From: a virus | Direction: 5' to 3' (one strand) | DNA length: 29,315 nt | UHGV virus genome: UHGV-0059448 | Part shown: in pieces, positions 6,144-26,951 of the stretch | Layout: each line of letters starts with the position of its first letter | Position numbering within the stretch: position 1 is the stretch's first letter | Translations under genes and position numbers: made by a program | The notes under the pieces: model-generated | What the model was told of the DNA's origin: nothing | Seen by the model: only the letters and a program-made list of their open reading frames with translations | Databases searched by the model: none

Positions 6144-6154
6144 ATTGCGCCCAT

Positions 6155-6178
6155 AAAAAAGGCCACCCGAAGGTGGCT
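6155..6178 (-). terminator. terminator-like hairpin in the I-J intergenic region
   Basis: Minus-strand RNA forms GCCACC-UUCG-GGUGGC (UUCG tetraloop) followed by C plus UUUUUU, ending 12 nt upstream of the J start codon. Confidence 0.4.
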
Positions 6179-6196
6179 TGTAAAAAGGTTTGTTAA

Positions 6197-14439: not shown

Positions 14440-15465
14440 TTATGCCAGTTTGACGGAGACGAATGCGTCAGGGTCTGGCAGCAGCATCAGCGGAGCTGAC
14501 TGAATCATGGTGAATTCGCGCGCCGGATCCCCCGACTGCACCCAGTTTTTCGGGTAGCGTGTCGAGGCATTGATACCTTCGCGCTGGGCATCAGCATCAA
14601 GAATGCAGCCATAGGTACGCAGGCCACGAGCCTGGGTATTCCCCAGCACCATTGTCAGGTCCGGCAGATAATTCTTTTTGACGTCGTTTTCGACGTACTG
14701 GCCGGAGTACACCACGATGGCCACATCGCCAAACATCCCCTTGTATGAAACAGCCATACCCAGGTCTTTCACGGCAGTTTCCAGCTCAGAGTTAGAACCA
14801 CGACGCGTATCCAGCTTCTTCTCAACAGCCTTGAAGGAACGGAACAGCGCCCAGCCTTTCGGATCGAACACAATGATGTTGACCACACCGCTGGCGTTGA
14901 GCGCGTAGGCTTCAATGTCATCGGTCGGGTCATACGTTTCTTTGTCGCGGGTTGACCATGCAGCCGCACCGGCCTGGACAATGTTGTTACCAGCGCTGCG
15001 GCCCATATCGACTTCAACAGGCTCGAACGCTTCCCCGGTCATGGTGTATTTACCGCTGAGCACCGCCGAAACAGCCTGTTTCTCTTCGACCTGAGCAATC
15101 GCCAGCTCTTCATCCTTCATGTTCTGAAGGATAATGCGGCGACGGCGATAGACCGGGTCAGCGAGATTCTGCGGATCCTCATCCGGCAGGCGGCGGAGAG
15201 TCATCAGTGGGTTAACTTCGTGTTTCGGCTTCACATAACCCGGCGTGAATTCAGAAGTGCTGCCGCCCCGGGAGCGGATCACTTTGCCGGAGACAATCGG
15301 CGAGACGTAAAGCGCCATATTGACCAGGCCAGGAATTTGCGACAGGTAAACCTTCTCTGTACTGAAGGGATAGGTTTCGCGGAAAAAGATACGCAGGAAA
15401 AGCGGATCGAATTTGAGTTTCTTCTCATTGACCGCCAGCAGTTGGGCAGTGGTGTAAACGGACAT
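14440..15465 (-). CDS. E: major capsid protein E
   Basis: 341-aa ORF nearly collinear with lambda E as recalled (MS.YTTAQLLA...KFDPLFLR...YLSQIPGLVNMALYVSPIVSG...). Confidence 0.97.
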   Translation of the reverse strand: MSVYTTAQLLAVNEKKLKFDPLFLRIFFRETYPFSTEKVYLSQIPGLVNMALYVSPIVSGKVIRSRGGSTSEFTPGYVKPKHEVNPLMTLRRLPDEDPQNLADPVYRRRRIILQNMKDEELAIAQVEEKQAVSAVLSGKYTMTGEAFEPVEVDMGRSAGNNIVQAGAAAWSTRDKETYDPTDDIEAYALNASGVVNIIVFDPKGWALFRSFKAVEKKLDTRRGSNSELETAVKDLGMAVSYKGMFGDVAIVVYSGQYVENDVKKNYLPDLTMVLGNTQARGLRTYGCILDADAQREGINASTRYPKNWVQSGDPAREFTMIQSAPLMLLPDPDAFVSVKLA

Positions 15466-15478
15466 AGATTTTTCCCGT

Positions 15479-15503
15479 AAAAAAAGCCGCGCAAGCGGCT
15501 TTT
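15479..15503 (-). terminator. intrinsic terminator-like hairpin between D and E
   Basis: Minus-strand RNA AGCCGC-UUGC-GCGGCU followed by UUUUUUU; lies 30 nt after the D stop and about 15 nt before the E start. Confidence 0.55.
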
Positions 15504-15532
15504 ATGAATGATGATGGTTGTAGAAATGCGGA

Positions 15533-15865
15533 TTAAACGATGCTGATTGCAGTACCGGCGAACGCGTTACGTTTAATGTTGTCGTCGGTGACGGCAGATG
15601 GCCAGAGGACATCTTCAATACGGAAAGAGCCAGATTTGTAATATGCCAGTTCCGCGCTGTTCTGGTCTGCGGTTACAGCCAGGATGCCCATTGCCGCGCC
15701 AGCATGAGCACCATCCCAGACGGTCAGCTTGCCGGAAGTGGCATCCAGCATCAGGGGCGTCATCGCCGGTACTGCTTTCGTCAGTTCACCAGGTGCAAAA
15801 CCGGTATGCGCCGGATCACTGTTCCCGAGGGGCTGATTGTGCGTAAATTGTTCAGTGTTAGACAT
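15533..15865 (-). CDS. D: head decoration protein D
   Basis: 110-aa ORF; [14 protein letters not shown]...AMTPLMLD...FAGTAISIV as in lambda D. Confidence 0.95.
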
Positions 15866-15874
15866 GTTGACCTC

Positions 15875-16282
15875 TTAAACAGGCGTATTTAACAAATCGT
15901 CACCCGCTTCGGCAGAAGCGCTACCTGCCGTTATGGTGCCGGGTGCGGTTTCCATCAGACGATCCAGCGCGGTATCCGTACGCGCCTGAGCACTCAGAGG
16001 AGCCGCGGCAAGGATGCGCTGGGCACTTTCCACCGTCATCCCGGGCGTTTCCGCCAGCGCGCGCGCCTGTGATTCACGCCCTTTCGCCTCTTCACAGTTC
16101 AGGATCCCCATAATGCGACCGTTTTCGGCTGCGACCGCCGCTGCCACCTGGCTGCTGATATCAACAGTTGCGCCCGCTGCAGGGTCAGTAACGACCGCAG
16201 CAGGCACGTCAACGGTGGTCACGGTCTGGTCAGCAGATGCTGCTGGTTGAGTGGTATCTGCGGATGCAGTAGTACCTTTCAT
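15875..16282 (-). CDS. Nu3: capsid scaffolding protein Nu3 (nested in-frame in the 3' part of C)
   Basis: Internal ATG at 16282 preceded by GAGGAGGAAGC Shine-Dalgarno inside the C frame; product begins MKGTTASADTT... and ends with the C C-terminus, as for lambda Nu3. Confidence 0.75.
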   Translation of the reverse strand: MKGTTASADTTQPAASADQTVTTVDVPAAVVTDPAAGATVDISSQVAAAVAAENGRIMGILNCEEAKGRESQARALAETPGMTVESAQRILAAAPLSAQARTDTALDRLMETAPGTITAGSASAEAGDDLLNTPV

Positions 16283-17212
16283 GCTTCCTCCTCGGGAAAT
16301 CATCGTTCGTTTGTTAATTGCATCGCGCATAACGTTCAGCGCATCCATGTTGTTGACCAGCTGCTCCGCCAGGCCGTTGTCAACTGATTCCTGGCCTGAA
16401 AAAACAGCTGCTTCAGTATCAAGAACGGCCTGAACCGACATGCCGGTATAACCCGCCACCTTTTCAGCGAACATCTGCCGGGTAGCGTCGATACGCGCCT
16501 GAAAATCTGCGCGTACCTCTTTGGGTAATTTCTCGTAGGGGTTCCCGTCCACCTTGTGATCGCCGCTGTAAATCAGCGTGACCTCAACGCCGCTGGTTTT
16601 AAGGGCGGCGCCGTAATTGCTGTGGGCCATCATGACCCCGATGGATCCCGTTCTGGCCGTCTGGGTCACAAGCCGACGTGATGCCGCACTGGCAATCAGC
16701 TGGCCAGCGCTGCAGTTCATATCGTTGGCTAACGCCCAGATGGGTTTGATATCCCGCATGCGGGCGATGATGTCCGCACAGTCAAAGGCACCCGCCACCA
16801 TTCCACCTGGCGTATCCATATCCAGAAGAATGCCGTCTACACCCGGATCGCTGATTGCCTGCTGGAGGCGGGCGATGATGCCGTTGTACCCCGTCATCCC
16901 CGAATACGGCTGGAGTGAGCGGGTTTTACTGACCAGCGTCCCGGAAACAGGCAGCACCGCGATACCATCAGTAACCTGGTAGCTTCGCGCTGGTTTTGGG
17001 CCCATGTCCTCATCATCACCAAAGAGAGCCAGCGGTTCAGCCATCTGCTCTGCACCTAGCGTCACGCCCGACACGGTGTCGGTCAGACGGGTGATACCTA
17101 ACTGACCAGCGAGAGCACAAAAGAAAACCCGCGCATAGGCGGGTTCAAGTAAAAGCGGCTCATTGAAGGCCATACTGGCAATGTGCGGGAGATTACGCAG
17201 CTCTGGCGTCAT
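15875..17212 (-). CDS. C: prohead protease C (ClpP/S49-like)
   Basis: ATG at 17212 ([19 protein letters not shown]...) with GAGGAGGGG SD, preferred over the upstream ATG at 17227; DMDTPGGMVAGAFD motif; overlaps the 3' end of B. Confidence 0.95.
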   Translation of the reverse strand: MTPELRNLPHIASMAFNEPLLLEPAYARVFFCALAGQLGITRLTDTVSGVTLGAEQMAEPLALFGDDEDMGPKPARSYQVTDGIAVLPVSGTLVSKTRSLQPYSGMTGYNGIIARLQQAISDPGVDGILLDMDTPGGMVAGAFDCADIIARMRDIKPIWALANDMNCSAGQLIASAASRRLVTQTARTGSIGVMMAHSNYGAALKTSGVEVTLIYSGDHKVDGNPYEKLPKEVRADFQARIDATRQMFAEKVAGYTGMSVQAVLDTEAAVFSGQESVDNGLAEQLVNNMDALNVMRDAINKRTMISRGGSMKGTTASADTTQPAASADQTVTTVDVPAAVVTDPAAGATVDISSQVAAAVAAENGRIMGILNCEEAKGRESQARALAETPGMTVESAQRILAAAPLSAQARTDTALDRLMETAPGTITAGSASAEAGDDLLNTPV

Positions 17213-18785
17213 CGGTCCCCTCCTCATTCGATTTTTTCACTCCAGACTCAAAGGCCGAAGCCGCCCACGCTGGCGGTTTAAGTCCCGCTGCGCGACGCTC
17301 CATCGTTTCGCGAACCTGCTGGGCAAAGATTTCCTGATAATCTTCCCCCCGTTTGGCGCATTCCTTCTCATAGGTGCTCAGCCCAGCCTCAATGAGCATG
17401 ACAGCCTCCTGCACCTCCTTCAGACCGTCAATGGCCATTCTCCCGGAGCCGATCCAGTCTGCATTTCCCCAGGCGCTTCTCGCCTCCTGAAAACTGAATC
17501 GGGCTTTAGACGGTAGTGTCACCACCCGGCGAACAATGGCCTCTTCCAGCCAGCATAAAAACATCTGACAGGCCTGGCGGGAGGCAACAAATTTGCGGCG
17601 CCCCATAAAGTACGCCCAGGACTCGTTAGCACTGGCGCGGGCGGTGGAATAACTCATCTGCGAATAGTTGCGAGAGAGTTGCTCATACGACACACCCAGC
17701 CCTGCAGCAATGTAGCGCAGCAGAGATTGTTCAAACGTCGAATAGCCGTTATCAGTATCCTGCGCTGACTGAAGATTCAGGGAGTCGCCCGGCATCAGAT
17801 GCGGCACCTTCGCGCCGCCGAGACGAACCGGCGCAGCGGTATAGTACGAGGCCATCTCCCCCAGCCAGCCGGTCATCTTGCTTTGCTGCTCTTTACTGTC
17901 TGAGCCGAGAATAAAGTCCATCGCGGTTTGCGTATCCAGCTCACTTTCAATCGTGGCGGCATACATCGCCTTGACAATCGCGCTCTGGAGCTGCGTATTC
18001 TGCAGTGTATCGAGCATTTTCATTTGCTCCATGACGCTGTAAAACACGTTAGCACCGCGTGTCTGCCCATCTTCCAGGGGTTCAAATACGTGGATAAAGG
18101 AAGGCCGCCCGCCTGGCAGCTCACGCGGGATGTAGGTCCACTTCTGCGCCATCCACCCCGGATAGCCATCTTCGCTGACGTAATATCCCAGCGCGGCGCC
18201 ACTGTCATTTGTTCTGACCCCCGCCCGACAGTTTCGCGTGTCTCCGGCGTTATTGGGGTTGCTGATGCGTTTCGGGCTCACCATTTTGAACTGTGTGCGG
18301 AAAAGACGCGTGGAATCACTGTCCCAGGTGGCCTGTGCACATAACTCACCGTTAAACGCATGCATGGATACACCTTCACGGATCATCATGGTGAATGTAC
18401 GCTTACGTTCCGCATCAATGCAGCAGCAATCATCCTCCGCAAATTCTTTCCAGGCCGCCTCAACTTCACGGGAGAACGCCCGGGCCTCTTCCTCTCCAAT
18501 GCCAAGAAAACGCCAGCTGGGCCGATAACTGAGCCGGAAAAACGACCCTACAATGTGGTCCTGATGGAGCTGTACCGCGTTTGCCGCATAGCCGTTATTG
18601 CGGACCAGATCGTCAGCGCGCGCGTTACCACGGGAAAAATTAGGCAATAACGCAGCATCTGCGCTTTCACTCGGTGGATTCCAGGCGCGGAGCTGACCGC
18701 CAAAGCCACCAGCACCGCCATGGTATCCGGCATAATCCCGCAGAGCGGTTTTACCGTCCGGTCCTAACAAAGCAGGTGTTTTCAT
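17193..18785 (-). CDS. B: portal protein B
   Basis: 530-aa ORF nearly collinear with lambda B as recalled (YAGYHGG...GFGGQLR.WNPPSES...). Confidence 0.97.
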
Positions 18786-21677: not shown

Positions 21678-22406
21678 CTATCGACGGCACTGCTGCCAGA
21701 TAACACCACCGGGGAAACATTCCATCATGATGGCCGTGCGGACATAGGAAGCCAGTTCATCCATCGCTTTCTTGTCTGCTGCCATTTGCTTTGTGACATC
21801 CAGCGCCGCACATTCAGCAGCGTTTTTCAGCGCGTTTTCGATCAACGTTTCAATGTTGGTATCAACACCAGGTTTAACTTTGAACTTATCGGCACTGACG
21901 GTTACCTTGTTCTGCGCTGGCTCATCACGCTGGATACCAAGGCTGATGTTGTAGATATTGGTCACCGGCAGAGGTGTTTCGATTGCCGCTGCGTGGATAG
22001 CACCATTTGCGATAGCGGCGTCCTTGATGAATGACACTCCATTGCGAATAAGTTCGAAGGAGACGGTGTCACGAATGCGCTGGTCCAGCTCGTCGATTGC
22101 CTTTTGTGCAGCAGAGGTATCAATCTCAACGCCAAGCGTCATCGAAGCGCAATATTGCTGCTCACCAAAACGCGTATTGACCAGGTGTTCAACGGCAAAT
22201 TTCTGCCCTTCTGATGTCAGAAAGGTAAAGTGATTTTCTTTCTGGTATTCAGTTGCTGTGTGTCTGGTTTCAGCAAAACCAAGCTCGCGCAATTCGGCTG
22301 TGCCAGATTTAGAAGGCAGATCACCAGACAGCAACGCGCCACGGAAAAACAGCGCATAAAGCACTTCATTAGCAGCGCCAGATAGCGTAATGATTTTGTT
22401 ACTCAT
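21678..22406 (-). CDS. hypothetical protein (243 aa), function unknown
   Basis: ATG at 22406 (MSNKIITLSGAANEV...) with AAGGAAA SD, preferred over the upstream start at 22445; lies between an upstream terminator and cosQ; not recognised as any lambda gene. Confidence 0.7.
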   Translation of the reverse strand: MSNKIITLSGAANEVLYALFFRGALLSGDLPSKSGTAELRELGFAETRHTATEYQKENHFTFLTSEGQKFAVEHLVNTRFGEQQYCASMTLGVEIDTSAAQKAIDELDQRIRDTVSFELIRNGVSFIKDAAIANGAIHAAAIETPLPVTNIYNISLGIQRDEPAQNKVTVSADKFKVKPGVDTNIETLIENALKNAAECAALDVTKQMAADKKAMDELASYVRTAIMMECFPGGVIWQQCRR

Positions 22407-22517
22407 GGAATATTTCCTTTTAGGCGTGAGCCTGTCGCACAGCAAAGCCGCCGAAAGTTAACGGTTTGCCCAGGCTCACAACTGAAAGACTTTCTACGGT
22501 GTGCGCGTGCGATGCGC

Positions 22518-22545
22518 ATAAAAAAGCCCCGCATAGGCGAGGCTG
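22518..22545 (-). terminator. rho-independent terminator after the peptidase gene
   Basis: Minus-strand RNA AGCCUCGC-CUAU-GCGGGGCU followed by UUUUUUAU, about 20 nt after the stop of the 22563..23465 gene. Confidence 0.6.
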
Positions 22546-22562
22546 GAATCAGACAGGGGGGA

Positions 22563-23465
22563 TTAAGACTGGATATTCCAAATCATTGCGTTACCGTTAT
22601 GATTTTCAATGATTTTTGCCAGTGGTGCTCCACCAAAAGAATGCATGTAGCTGTGATGTATAGTCAAAACCAAATCTTGAAGTACTTGATCACTTTCAAG
22701 TTCGGTAACATTCAACCCAATTTTCTGCGCCTTATCAAAATGAATATGACGCGAGTGGGTATAGGTTGTGTGATGGTTGTTTAACTCTGAACAAACATGT
22801 GTTGCTTTTGATTCTGCCTCAGGATCATTATCAAACATGCCTGTCATAAGCCAATGCTTAACAATCTCATTTGCCCATTTGATTGCTTTCTCACACTCGC
22901 CGATGATCGTCGGGTTTAGCTTTTGAAGAATGAACTGCCACATCTGAACAGCTGCGGGATTTTGAAAAATTTCCGTCTGCGCACGATTCCATTCTTCAAT
23001 GATGGCATGGGTGGAGAAACCGTTGAACTGAGGATCAATTGGGCCAATGTTGGACTGTTTACCCATGATGATTTCATTGGCACAACATGCAAGCATAGTT
23101 CCGCAGGACATTGAAATCATAGGAACAATTGCTCTGATGTTAGTTCCAAACTTCGACCTTAAGTAATGCCCGATTGATTCCAAAGCGGCAATATCACCAC
23201 CTGGAGTATGAAGTATCAAATCCAACCCTTTTGATACATCTAAACCATTGATGGCTGTCATCAACCCGTTCTTATCATCATCAGTCATCTGAGTAAGATG
23301 GCGTACTTCTGCACCACCATGCTGTAACCACCCTGAGTAATATGTGATTACATTTCTTCCAGTATGATTCGAAAGTTGAGATAAGTATTTACGGCGAACC
23401 TCATCCATAGGACTTTTATGGGCGAGAGCCGTTATCTCGCCCAGTACGTCGCTCCAATTAGGCAT
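22563..23465 (-). CDS. ClpP-fold serine peptidase-like protein (S49 / serine dehydrogenase proteinase-like), accessory
   Basis: 300-aa ORF, ATG at 23465; motifs LILHTPGG and ISMSCGTMLA followed by IGPIDPQ resemble the oxyanion/nucleophile regions of ClpP/S49-family peptidases; lower GC than structural genes; second such protease in the window besides C. Family assignment is from motif recognition only. Confidence 0.65.
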   Translation of the reverse strand: MPNWSDVLGEITALAHKSPMDEVRRKYLSQLSNHTGRNVITYYSGWLQHGGAEVRHLTQMTDDDKNGLMTAINGLDVSKGLDLILHTPGGDIAALESIGHYLRSKFGTNIRAIVPMISMSCGTMLACCANEIIMGKQSNIGPIDPQFNGFSTHAIIEEWNRAQTEIFQNPAAVQMWQFILQKLNPTIIGECEKAIKWANEIVKHWLMTGMFDNDPEAESKATHVCSELNNHHTTYTHSRHIHFDKAQKIGLNVTELESDQVLQDLVLTIHHSYMHSFGGAPLAKIIENHNGNAMIWNIQS

Positions 23466-25776: not shown

Positions 25777-25807
25777 GTTGCCAGTTTTCAATGAAGATAA
25801 TGCGGGC

Positions 25808-25835
25808 AAAAAAAAGCCTGCTCGGACGAACAGGC
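25808..25835 (-). terminator. rho-independent terminator, candidate tR' of the late leader transcript
   Basis: Minus-strand RNA GCCUGUUC-GUCC-GAGCAGGC followed by UUUUUUUU; about 140 nt downstream of the candidate late promoter. Confidence 0.6.
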
Positions 25836-25978
25836 ATGAAAAATAACAATACCGTCAAGGAGGTGGCGCCGGGTGCCTCCCGGTGGAACAGCCCCAGCCG
25901 ACTAGTTCCGCGCAAACAAACCTGGACAAAAAAGTTTGACTGGACGCCCCGCCGCATAGGGGGATTCACCACACGAAT

Positions 25979-26008
25979 AGATTAACAACATGTTAATTTT
26001 CTGGTCAA
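25979..26008 (-). promoter_or_regulatory. candidate late promoter pR'
   Basis: Minus-strand TTGACC (26008..26003), 18-bp spacer, TAATCT (25984..25979); context ATATCTTATTGAC resembles the lambda pR' region as I recall it. Weak -10, so assignment is tentative. Confidence 0.3.
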
Positions 26009-26172: not shown

Positions 26173-26261
26173 TAATTTTACAAACTGGTATATGACTATC
26201 ATCTTCATGCCGCCACTTAAAGTTAAGGCAGCATATCAAAGTAGACTCAAATATGACGTAT

Positions 26262-26951
26262 TTAATTGACTTTTGCAAGACCCTGCTGCGAAAAAGTCGC
26301 TTTTTGTTGTGATCGTGTTCTCACAGCACAGAGAAGAGAGTCGCTATCAAGCCGCTTAAAAATGGCGCACATAGCCCGCCAGTAATCAGCGTAGTTATGG
26401 CACCAGTTATCAGGCTTAACGCCACACAGGGCTGCAAGGTCCTGGTGCTGATATACATACTTACCCGCCAGCTCTGCTTTCACGTCCTGTGCCGCCAGCC
26501 ATATCAGTTTCTTCAGCCGCTCCATCGTCTTGCCGGCCACTTTCTTAGCGCCGAGTTGATCACGGAATTCTTCCCATGCCCACTGTGTTATCGCTACTTG
26601 ATACTCAAAGCGGATATTGTCGCTGTAGTTCCACAGCAACCAGGATTTCTGGTGGTCTTCCAGCGACAGGAGGGCGCGGCGCCAGCTGGCTGTCGAGTAT
26701 TCAACGGGCAGAACGAGAGCGATTGAGGAACCCTTAGCGCGGGACTGGCTGCCGCTCATCGGCGGTCCATCCGGGTTAACCATTTTTTGCTTCACCTCGC
26801 TATACACCTTCTTCCGGCCACGGCTGCGCGCCGTAGCGGTAAATTGCGCGTTCTCTGCAAAAGCTACCAGTTGCCCTTTCGTCGCACCACTCAGATCGGC
26901 GGTGGCCACTATCAGCTGCTGGCGAACAAATTCCAAGTATTGAGCTGTCAT
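26262..26951 (-). CDS. putative late-gene antiterminator (Q-like by position; family not verified)
   Basis: 229-aa ORF, ATG at 26951 overlapping the stop of the preceding small ORF (ATGA); last gene before the late promoter/terminator region and lysis genes; sequence does not resemble lambda Q as recalled. Confidence 0.5.
   Translation of the reverse strand: MTAQYLEFVRQQLIVATADLSGATKGQLVAFAENAQFTATARSRGRKKVYSEVKQKMVNPDGPPMSGSQSRAKGSSIALVLPVEYSTASWRRALLSLEDHQKSWLLWNYSDNIRFEYQVAITQWAWEEFRDQLGAKKVAGKTMERLKKLIWLAAQDVKAELAGKYVYQHQDLAALCGVKPDNWCHNYADYWRAMCAIFKRLDSDSLLCAVRTRSQQKATFSQQGLAKVN

What the first reader, a model, noticed from the sequence alone, without database searches (positions are those of the whole stretch)
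15479..15503. Strong intrinsic terminator structure between decoration protein D and major capsid E genes
A 6-bp GC stem with a 4-nt loop and a U7 tract sits inside the late operon between two abundantly required head genes. Antiterminated late transcription should read through it, so it may act as an RNA stability or processing element, or terminate Q-independent transcripts.
Basis: seen in the sequence. Interest (0 to 1): 0.35.

Follow-up and report, generated by a model that had tools for sequence, protein, structure and literature searches.

The report
Conserved terminator hairpin before capsid gene
The hairpin-plus-U-run between the phage head genes D and E is real and strongly conserved, but databases already annotate it in lambda-like phages as a putative rho-independent terminator, and its biological role has never been tested.

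Summary
On the minus (coding) strand, window 15503-15479 reads AAAA-GCCGC-UUGC-GCGGC-UUUUUUU. It lies in the 67-nt spacer between D (15533-15865) and E (14440-15465) of a phi80-type late operon that has a Q antiterminator gene upstream.

About 1.7e-4 such motifs are expected by chance in that spacer. The stem and a U6-U9 run are present in all 56 distinct D-E spacers whose E protein is at least 72% identical. The loop (18 variants) and the upstream spacer vary freely, and the two pairs outside the core show A-U > G-U > G-C compensation.

This is not new. The same hairpin is annotated as a (putative) rho-independent terminator in the GenBank records of N15, mEp237, HK225, HK629 and 434. Published comment on such intra-operon terminators is that their roles are unknown.

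My best reading is a genuine sense-oriented intrinsic terminator that Q-loaded RNA polymerase bypasses. It would then act as a fail-safe against unmodified polymerase, and the hairpin would persist in read-through mRNA as a decay barrier.

I tested and rejected a D-to-E translational-coupling helix. A promoter and a mosaic junction are not supported. Interest is low, because the function cannot be resolved without 3'-end mapping.

The parts
15479..15503 (-). Whole terminator-like element: A4, 5-bp G-C stem, UUGC loop, U7
   Evidence: Sequence; folds; matches the terminator/stem_loop features annotated in N15, mEp237 and 434.
15495..15499 (-). 5' stem arm GCCGC
   Evidence: GCCGC in 40 of 42 distinct hairpin segments and GUCGC (one G-U pair) in the other 2.
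15491..15494 (-). Loop UUGC, free to vary
   Evidence: 18 different loops (17 of 4 nt, one of 3 nt) among 42 distinct segments. Column identity is 0.4-0.6.
15486..15490 (-). 3' stem arm GCGGC
   Evidence: Invariant in all 42 distinct segments.
15479..15485 (-). U7 tract immediately 3' of the stem
   Evidence: T-run length is 7 in 35 segments, 6 in 5, 8 in 1 and 9 in 1, out of 42 distinct segments.
15500..15503 (-). A4 tract that can pair with the first 4 U's (stem extension)
   Evidence: The outer pairs are mostly A-U, with G-U intermediates and G-C in L016, L040 and L120/L121. Two pairs carry changes on both sides.
15504..15532 (-). Upstream spacer: hypervariable, C-rich and G-poor
   Evidence: Column identity is 0.2-0.6. 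Composition is C 37% and G 4.9% across 56 spacers. There is a 12-nt indel against lambda.
15466..15478 (-). E translation-initiation region ACGGGAAAAAUCU (Shine-Dalgarno GGGA at 15476-15473)
   Evidence: Nearly invariant, and the 13-nt distance to the ATG is kept.
15533..15865 (-). Gene D (head decoration protein)
   Evidence: PF02924, E 1.1e-19.
14440..15465 (-). Gene E (major capsid protein)
   Evidence: PF03864, E 2.5e-64.
26262..26951 (-). Q antiterminator gene at the head of the same transcription unit
   Evidence: PF06323, E 1.1e-79. Terminator-like hairpins lie downstream at 26173-26151 and 25835-25816, and an STnc100 match at 25805-26004.

Best explanation
This is a genuine rho-independent (intrinsic) terminator. 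It is oriented with the late operon and sits in the 5' untranslated region of the major capsid gene E.

During lytic growth, RNA polymerase loaded with Q at the late promoter does not respond to terminator hairpins, so it reads through and D and E are co-transcribed. A polymerase that lacks Q would be released at the U7 tract before it enters E and the downstream head-completion and tail genes. Such polymerases could come from spurious initiation inside Nu1-D, read-in transcription in the prophage, or complexes that have lost Q. The element would therefore work as a fail-safe that keeps expression of E and everything downstream strictly Q-dependent.

In read-through mRNA the same hairpin still folds, and it probably also acts as a barrier to exonucleolytic decay.

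Shown here: the structure, its orientation, its conservation and the presence of Q. Inferred: termination of unmodified polymerase, bypass by Q, and the decay-barrier role.
For: 1. All canonical terminator features are present, and about 1.7e-4 such motifs are expected by chance in the spacer.
2. All 56 distinct D-E spacers with E at least 72% identical keep the stem and a U6-U9 run. Sources include Escherichia, Enterobacter, Kluyvera, Citrobacter, Klebsiella, Buttiauxella, Trabulsiella, Erwinia and an Aeromonadaceae MAG. Loop positions, the upstream spacer and D third-codon positions vary.
3. 97.8% of stem cells are paired, and two outer pairs show compensatory change through G-U intermediates.
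4. The element is directional. The sense tail is UUUUUUUACGGG. The antisense tail is UUUUAUGAAUGA, and the A-run that encodes it is not conserved (AAAA, AGAA, AAAG, CCGA, ACGG).
5. The stringent scan finds three such sites in the window, all on the late-operon sense strand and none antisense, against 0.15 expected. One lies in the I-J spacer, and lambda has a different terminator-like hairpin at the same position.
6. Q (PF06323) is encoded upstream on the same strand. Q-lambda is reported to block formation of terminator hairpins in the RNA exit channel (PMC9388147 abstract).
7. Independent annotators call this element a rho-independent terminator in N15, mEp237, HK225, HK629 and 434.
8. Stopping non-antiterminated transcription is one of the two roles suggested for intra-operon terminators in PMC8022706.
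Against: No 3'-end mapping or termination assay for this site was found in the held literature.

No promoter upstream that would supply unmodified polymerase stands out. Promoter-like sites occur at chance frequency (12 found, 14.6 expected).

A sister subfamily (E about 60%, D about 47% identical) carries a 9-bp hairpin without a U-run at the same position. Several distant E-type modules have U-less hairpins next to the capsid gene. Both suggest that the hairpin alone may be the selected feature.

The core stem is short (-8.3 to -9.9 kcal/mol), so termination efficiency may be modest.
Confidence: 0.5

Rival explanations
1. The element is mainly an mRNA stability or processing element. The hairpin would block 3'->5' exonucleases and protect the upstream Nu1-D segment. 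Alternatively, after endonuclease cleavage in the single-stranded spacer, it would cap the 5' end of the E message. On this reading termination is incidental.
For: A sister D-E subfamily has a different strong hairpin (TCAGGCCAC-N4-GTGGCCTGA) at the same position with no U-run. Chi-like phages, Enc34 and BcepNazgul have U-less hairpins next to the capsid gene. The hairpin will still fold in read-through mRNA.
Against: An exonuclease barrier does not explain a U6-U9 run directly after the stem in 42 of 42 distinct segments. The hairpin lies upstream of E, so it cannot protect the 3' end of the most abundant message. No processing data were found.
Confidence: 0.25
2. The element is part of the E translation-initiation region. 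The U-rich tract would act as an S1-binding enhancer, and the hairpin would insulate the weak GGGA Shine-Dalgarno from upstream structure.
For: The block from the U-run to the ATG is nearly invariant with a fixed 13-nt spacing. It is unpaired in the centroid fold. E must be made in very large amounts.
Against: The same layout (hairpin, U-run, A[U/C]GGG, ATG) precedes J, which from general knowledge of lambda is a low-copy tail protein. This reading also does not explain the invariant G-C stem or the A/U stem extension.
Confidence: 0.1
3. The element is a partial attenuator. It would terminate a fraction of late transcripts, even Q-modified ones, to lower expression of downstream genes.
For: This is one of the two roles suggested for intra-operon terminators in P22-like phages (PMC8022706).
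Against: The next gene, E, is needed in amounts at least equal to D, so attenuation here would be counterproductive (inference from known capsid stoichiometry). Q-loaded polymerase is terminator-resistant.
Confidence: 0.07
4. The spacer holds a promoter for gene 8 (E), as annotated in phi80 record FN582354 (-35 TTTCTA, -10 region TCATAAAAG, start site inside the hairpin loop).
For: Annotation in one GenBank record.
Against: The hexamers are poor (3 of 6 and about 4 of 6, about 14-nt spacing, by reading the sequence). The promoter scan finds nothing here. The -35 lies in the hypervariable part of the spacer and is absent from relatives.
Confidence: 0.03
5. The element is a conserved linker where lambdoid head modules recombine (a mosaic junction), kept at the DNA level rather than for an RNA function.
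For: A sharp switch from a hypervariable spacer to an invariant block. Some loci have similar E identity but different D identity.
Against: D and E identities co-vary (r = 0.82). The loop inside the conserved block is the most variable part, and the outer pairs co-vary. Both point to selection on structure, not on a recombination target sequence.
Confidence: 0.03

Closest known systems
The putative rho-independent terminator annotated between the decoration and major capsid genes of N15 (AF064539 stem_loop 5980-6004), mEp237, HK225, HK629 and 434
   Same: It is the same element. The window is 99.8% identical to phi80 and mEp237 and 95% identical to N15 over the junction. The GCCGC/GCGGC stem and the U7 run are identical in the lambda group.
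   Different: Nothing structural differs. The loop is UUGC here, CUGC in N15 and CUGU in lambda. The phi80 and lambda records examined do not annotate it.
tR' / 6S-type terminators downstream of the lambdoid late promoter, which Q-loaded polymerase bypasses
   Same: An intrinsic terminator in the sense orientation of the Q-dependent late operon. Comparable hairpins lie just downstream of Q in this window.
   Different: tR' is the regulatory target next to the promoter. The D-E element lies about 10.7 kb downstream of the Q gene in this window (Q start 26951, hairpin 15503), has a shorter stem, and has no demonstrated regulatory role.
Intra-operon terminators of P22-like late operons (phage L, at the end of the procapsid gene module)
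   Same: A predicted intrinsic terminator inside a single-promoter, antiterminated late operon next to the capsid genes, with an acknowledged unknown role (PMC8022706).
   Different: In phage L it lies downstream of the procapsid module rather than upstream of the capsid gene. The sequences are unrelated.
Intercistronic stabiliser hairpins such as REP elements in polycistronic operons (from general knowledge, not tested here)
   Same: A stable hairpin in an intercistronic spacer that could block 3' exonucleases.
   Different: REP-type elements do not have a U-run directly after the stem, whereas here the U-run is conserved.

Membership tests
Rho-independent (intrinsic) terminator | G+C-rich stem of about 5-14 bp with a 3-8 nt loop | tested here: met
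   GCCGC/GCGGC plus A-U, loop UUGC; -8.3 to -12.6 kcal/mol.
Rho-independent (intrinsic) terminator | U-tract of about 6-8 nt immediately 3' of the stem | tested here: met
   U7 at 15485-15479. U6-U9 in all 42 distinct relatives.
Rho-independent (intrinsic) terminator | Same orientation as the transcription unit, and not covered by translating ribosomes | tested here: met
   On the minus strand with D and E. It starts 29 nt after the D stop codon and ends 13 nt before the E ATG.
Rho-independent (intrinsic) terminator | Structure conserved among homologous loci | tested here: met
   97.8% of cells paired, loop variable, 2 pairs with compensatory change. The 5 core pairs are essentially invariant, so covariation support is modest.
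Rho-independent (intrinsic) terminator | RNA 3' ends or polymerase release at the U-tract, in vivo or in vitro | not testable with these tools
   No mapping data found in the held literature.
Q-antiterminated lambdoid late operon (context) | Q gene upstream on the same strand, followed by promoter-proximal terminator(s) | tested here: met
   PF06323 at 26262-26951. Terminator-like hairpins at 26173 and 25835. STnc100 match. QBE and pR' were not mapped.
Moron (promoter-gene-terminator cassette) | Own promoter upstream of the gene that the terminator follows | tested here: not met
   D starts 9 nt after C. No promoter-like site was reported upstream of D.
Any curated RNA family (Rfam 15) | Match at or above the gathering score | tested here: not met
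   Only sub-threshold matches (isrK 17.6 bits against a threshold of 50; STnc50 19.8 against 55).

The most novel reading that the evidence does not exclude
The D-E terminator would be one member of a conserved, distributed set of sense-oriented 'Q checkpoints' in lambda-type late operons. The other members would be the hairpin inside gene C, which is constrained at synonymous sites, and the I-J spacer hairpin. Together they would clear any polymerase lacking Q and make structural-gene expression all-or-none. The hairpins left in read-through mRNA would divide the 20-kb transcript into segments with different decay rates that help set protein ratios such as D:E.
Probability: 0.15. Interest if true: 0.45.

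Novelty: already known. Interest (0 to 1): 0.2.

Why it matters
Intra-operon terminators in antiterminated phage late operons are common, but the literature says their roles are not known (PMC8022706).

The comparative evidence here shows that this one is held by selection. The stem and U-run stay fixed while the loop and spacer vary, down to 72% E and 50% D protein identity. That makes it a well-defined test case for the question.

It is also convenient for experiments. The 141-bp junction, hairpin included, is 100% identical in the listed complete genomes of DH5alpha, DH10B, NEB 5-alpha and HST04, and at least 99% identical in 88 of the 89 matching complete E. coli genomes out of 5,426. Phage-display designs that delete D keep part of the hairpin (its 5' arm, loop and the first base of the 3' arm) at the end of a homology arm (PMC12930447).

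The practical consequence is modest: people who engineer the D-E junction should know that the element is there.

Tried and rejected
1. D-to-E translational coupling through a helix between the sequence just after the D stop codon (UCCG, or CCC in relatives) and the E Shine-Dalgarno CGGG. The MFE fold and recurring CCC motifs suggested it. It is rejected because the predicted probability of the pairing is lower in real spacers (0.78) than in composition-matched shuffles (0.89). Only 29% of real spacers exceed their shuffles. The C-rich, G-poor composition explains the apparent signal.

2. A promoter for gene 8 as annotated in FN582354. The hexamers are poor, they are not conserved, and the scan does not find them.

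3. A known RNA family. None was found.

4. A mosaic-junction linker. D and E co-diverge, r = 0.82.

5. A bidirectional terminator. The antisense U-tract is short and not conserved.

6. Literature search for experimental 3'-end or termination data at the lambda, phi80 or N15 D-E site. Seven searches found nothing specific. Two look-ups by PMC id recalled from memory found no held paper: one aimed at the Casjens & Hendrix 2015 review, the other at the 2013 PNAS lambda ribosome-profiling paper.

7. The built-in terminator scan did not list the site, so I used my own scanner.

Full report
**What is there**

The window is a phi80-type lambdoid phage. The 401 bases around the finding are 99.8% identical to phi80 and mEp237, 95% identical to N15 and about 75% identical to lambda.

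The late genes are on the minus strand. Pfam identifies:
- C/Nu3 protease at 15875-17227;
- D, the head decoration protein, at 15533-15865;
- E, the major capsid protein, at 14440-15465;
- FI and FII downstream.

A Q antiterminator gene (PF06323) lies upstream on the same strand at 26262-26951. Terminator-like hairpins and an STnc100-type sRNA match follow it. The block is therefore a Q-dependent late operon.

The D-E spacer is 67 nt (15466-15532). It is the largest gap between the ORFs of 90 aa or more from Nu1 to J.

Read on the coding strand, positions 15503-15479 are AAAA GCCGC UUGC GCGGC UUUUUUU. ACGGGAAAAAUCU and the E start codon follow. Two details need correction: the stem has five G-C pairs plus A-U pairs, not six G-C pairs, and the element is on the minus strand.

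**Is it more than chance?**

The spacer folds into this hairpin as the centroid structure. The whole-sequence z-scores are only about -2.1 to -2.3.

A motif-level test is more telling. A 5-bp Watson-Crick core with at least 4 G-C pairs, a 3-8 nt loop and at least 6 T in the next 7 bases occurs 0.15 times per dinucleotide-shuffled window on both strands. That is about 1.7e-4 expected in 67 nt.

The real window has three such sites, all on the late-operon sense strand: inside C (about 17146), D-E, and the I-J spacer (about 6177). The built-in scan missed the D-E site. I infer that extending the stem with A-U pairs consumed the T-run.

**Conservation**

I used an alignment of E homologues to fetch 139 loci from genome and viral collections.

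All 56 distinct D-E spacers whose E protein is at least 72% identical carry GCCGC-N3/4-GCGGC followed by a T-run. These come from Escherichia, Enterobacter, Kluyvera, Citrobacter, Klebsiella, Buttiauxella, Trabulsiella, Erwinia, an Aeromonadaceae MAG and many viral contigs.

Among the 42 distinct hairpin-to-ATG segments:
- the core is GCCGC/GCGGC in 40 and GUCGC/GCGGC (one G-U pair) in 2;
- the T-run has length 7 in 35, 6 in 5, 8 in 1 and 9 in 1;
- there are 18 different loops.

Column identity is 0.9-1.0 in the stem and T-run. It is 0.4-0.6 in the loop, 0.2-0.6 in the upstream spacer and about 0.4-0.6 at D third-codon positions.

On a 35-sequence alignment, 97.8% of cells are paired. Four pairs never vary. 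The two pairs just outside the core change from A-U through G-U to G-C. Covariation support is therefore modest, and the main signal is an invariant stem around a hypervariable loop.

One lambda-like contig in a low-coverage assembly has a broken stem (GCTGC, L036). Since the contig has low coverage, a sequencing error is a likely cause.

**Already known**

GenBank records annotate this hairpin as follows:
- N15: 'putative rho-indep. transcription terminator' (stem_loop 5980-6004);
- mEp237, HK225, HK629 and 434: 'rho-independent terminator'.

One phi80 record instead annotates a -35, a -10 and a start site for gene 8 in the same spacer. Those hexamers are weak, they lie partly in the hypervariable region, and the promoter scan does not find them.

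[quoted passage not shown] They suggest either partial termination or stopping spurious transcription that lacks antitermination (PMC8022706).

I found no 3'-end mapping or termination assay for this site in the held literature.

**How it most likely works**

The conserved combination of a G-C stem, a U6-U9 run directly after it, and sense orientation is what an intrinsic terminator needs. It is more than an exonuclease barrier or a ribosome-binding enhancer would need.

The element is directional. The antisense tail is UUUUAUGAAUGA, and the A-run that encodes it is not conserved.

Q-lambda is reported to narrow the RNA exit channel so that terminator hairpins cannot form (PMC9388147 abstract). 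Lytic late transcription should therefore pass the site.

My best reading, at confidence about 0.5, is a fail-safe. Polymerase without Q is released before it enters E and the genes downstream of it. The hairpin then persists in read-through mRNA as a secondary decay barrier. Supporting this, all three stringent terminator motifs in the window are sense-oriented, and lambda has a different terminator-like hairpin at the same I-J position.

**The main rival**

The hairpin alone could be the selected feature, through an RNA stability or processing role (confidence about 0.25).
- A sister D-E subfamily (E about 60%, D about 47% identical) has a different 9-bp hairpin, TCAGGCCAC-N4-GTGGCCTGA, at the same place with no U-run. 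One member (L167) instead has AGCCGC-AUU-GCGGCU followed by a U-rich tail.
- Vibrio phage K279 (32% identical) has the same layout as here: a G-poor spacer, a canonical terminator, then the Shine-Dalgarno and ATG.
- Chi-like phages, Enc34, Aeromonas PhAER-1 and BcepNazgul place a hairpin just downstream of the capsid gene. It has a U-run only in PhAER-1.

A hairpin flanking the capsid gene is therefore a recurrent theme. The U-run is specific to some lineages.

**Other readings**

- Partial attenuation is unlikely here, because E is needed in amounts at least equal to D.
- A translation-enhancer role for the U-run does not explain the stem. The same layout also precedes J, which from general knowledge of lambda is a low-copy tail protein.
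- A D-to-E coupling helix that occludes the E Shine-Dalgarno was tested and rejected. Real spacers pair the Shine-Dalgarno less than composition-matched shuffles do (0.78 against 0.89).
- A mosaic-junction linker is not supported. D and E identities co-vary (r = 0.82).
- No Rfam family matches.

**Verdict**

It is an already annotated feature of lambda, N15 and phi80-type phages, and its function cannot be settled without experiments. Interest is low (0.2).

The junction sequence, hairpin included, is 100% identical in the listed complete genomes of DH5alpha, DH10B, NEB 5-alpha and HST04. The decisive 3'-end mapping is therefore easy to do.

Noticed in passing
window 17146-17115, minus strand (inside gene C, codons about 28-37; about 47 nt after the B stop codon): A terminator-shaped hairpin, GAACCCGC-CUAUGC-GCGGGUU followed by UUCUUUUG, lies inside coding sequence (E-P-A-Y-A-R-V-F-F-C). 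Across 37 distinct sequences, including the distant subfamily with E about 60% identical, the stem codons CCC, GCC, GCG, CGG and GUU almost never change (GCU for GCC in one sequence; AUU, Ile, for GUU in one), including at their 4-fold or 6-fold degenerate positions. The loop codon (UAU/UAC) and the flanking Leu, Ala and Gly codons vary freely. This looks like a structure under selection within a gene.
   Followed up: partly
window 6177-6155, minus strand (53-nt I-J spacer, 6144-6196): A second intergenic terminator-like hairpin, GCCACC-UUCG-GGUGGC, then C, U6, AUGGGCGCAAU and the J start codon. It has the same layout as the D-E element. Lambda has a different hairpin (ACCGCC-UGCG-GGCGGU followed by UUUUGUCAUUU) in its own I-J spacer.
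   Followed up: partly
window 25805-26004, minus strand: Rfam STnc100 sRNA match (82.6 bits) downstream of the Q gene, ending at a terminator-like hairpin (25835-25816). It may correspond to the short terminated late-promoter transcript of lambdoid phages. PMC7547250 describes an sRNA of that kind in Stx phages.
   Followed up: no
window 15504-15532 and the homologous spacers in L003-L146: The spacer between the D stop codon and the hairpin is hypervariable in sequence and length, yet consistently C-rich and G-poor (C 37%, G 4.9%). The spacer upstream of the capsid gene in Vibrio phage K279 is also G-poor. The reason is unknown. It may avoid structures that compete with the hairpin.
   Followed up: partly
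L020-L036, L039, L045, L050-L062, L065 (genome-contig hits): Lambda-type E genes (about 85-92% identical to the query; 89% is lambda's own level) occur on short contigs, several with low coverage, in assemblies of unrelated taxa such as Neobacillus, Bradyrhizobium, Kitasatospora, Paenibacillus, Prevotella and an Akkermansia MAG. This looks like lambda DNA contamination of those assemblies.
   Followed up: no
window 15430-15570: This stretch is 100% identical in the listed complete genomes of DH5alpha, DH10B, NEB 5-alpha, HST04 and ECONIH4. It matches 89 of 5,426 complete E. coli genomes, 88 of them at 99% identity or more. From general knowledge, the lab cloning strains carry the phi80 lacZ-deltaM15 prophage, so the window probably comes from a phi80-type prophage.
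   Followed up: no
window 21678-23465, minus strand (between the lysis genes and Nu1): Two ORFs lie on the late-operon strand. One is a ClpP-like SDH-type protease (PF01972) and the other has a weak tail-tip fibre match. A strong terminator-like hairpin sits between them at 22544-22525. This could be an inserted cargo cassette.
   Followed up: no
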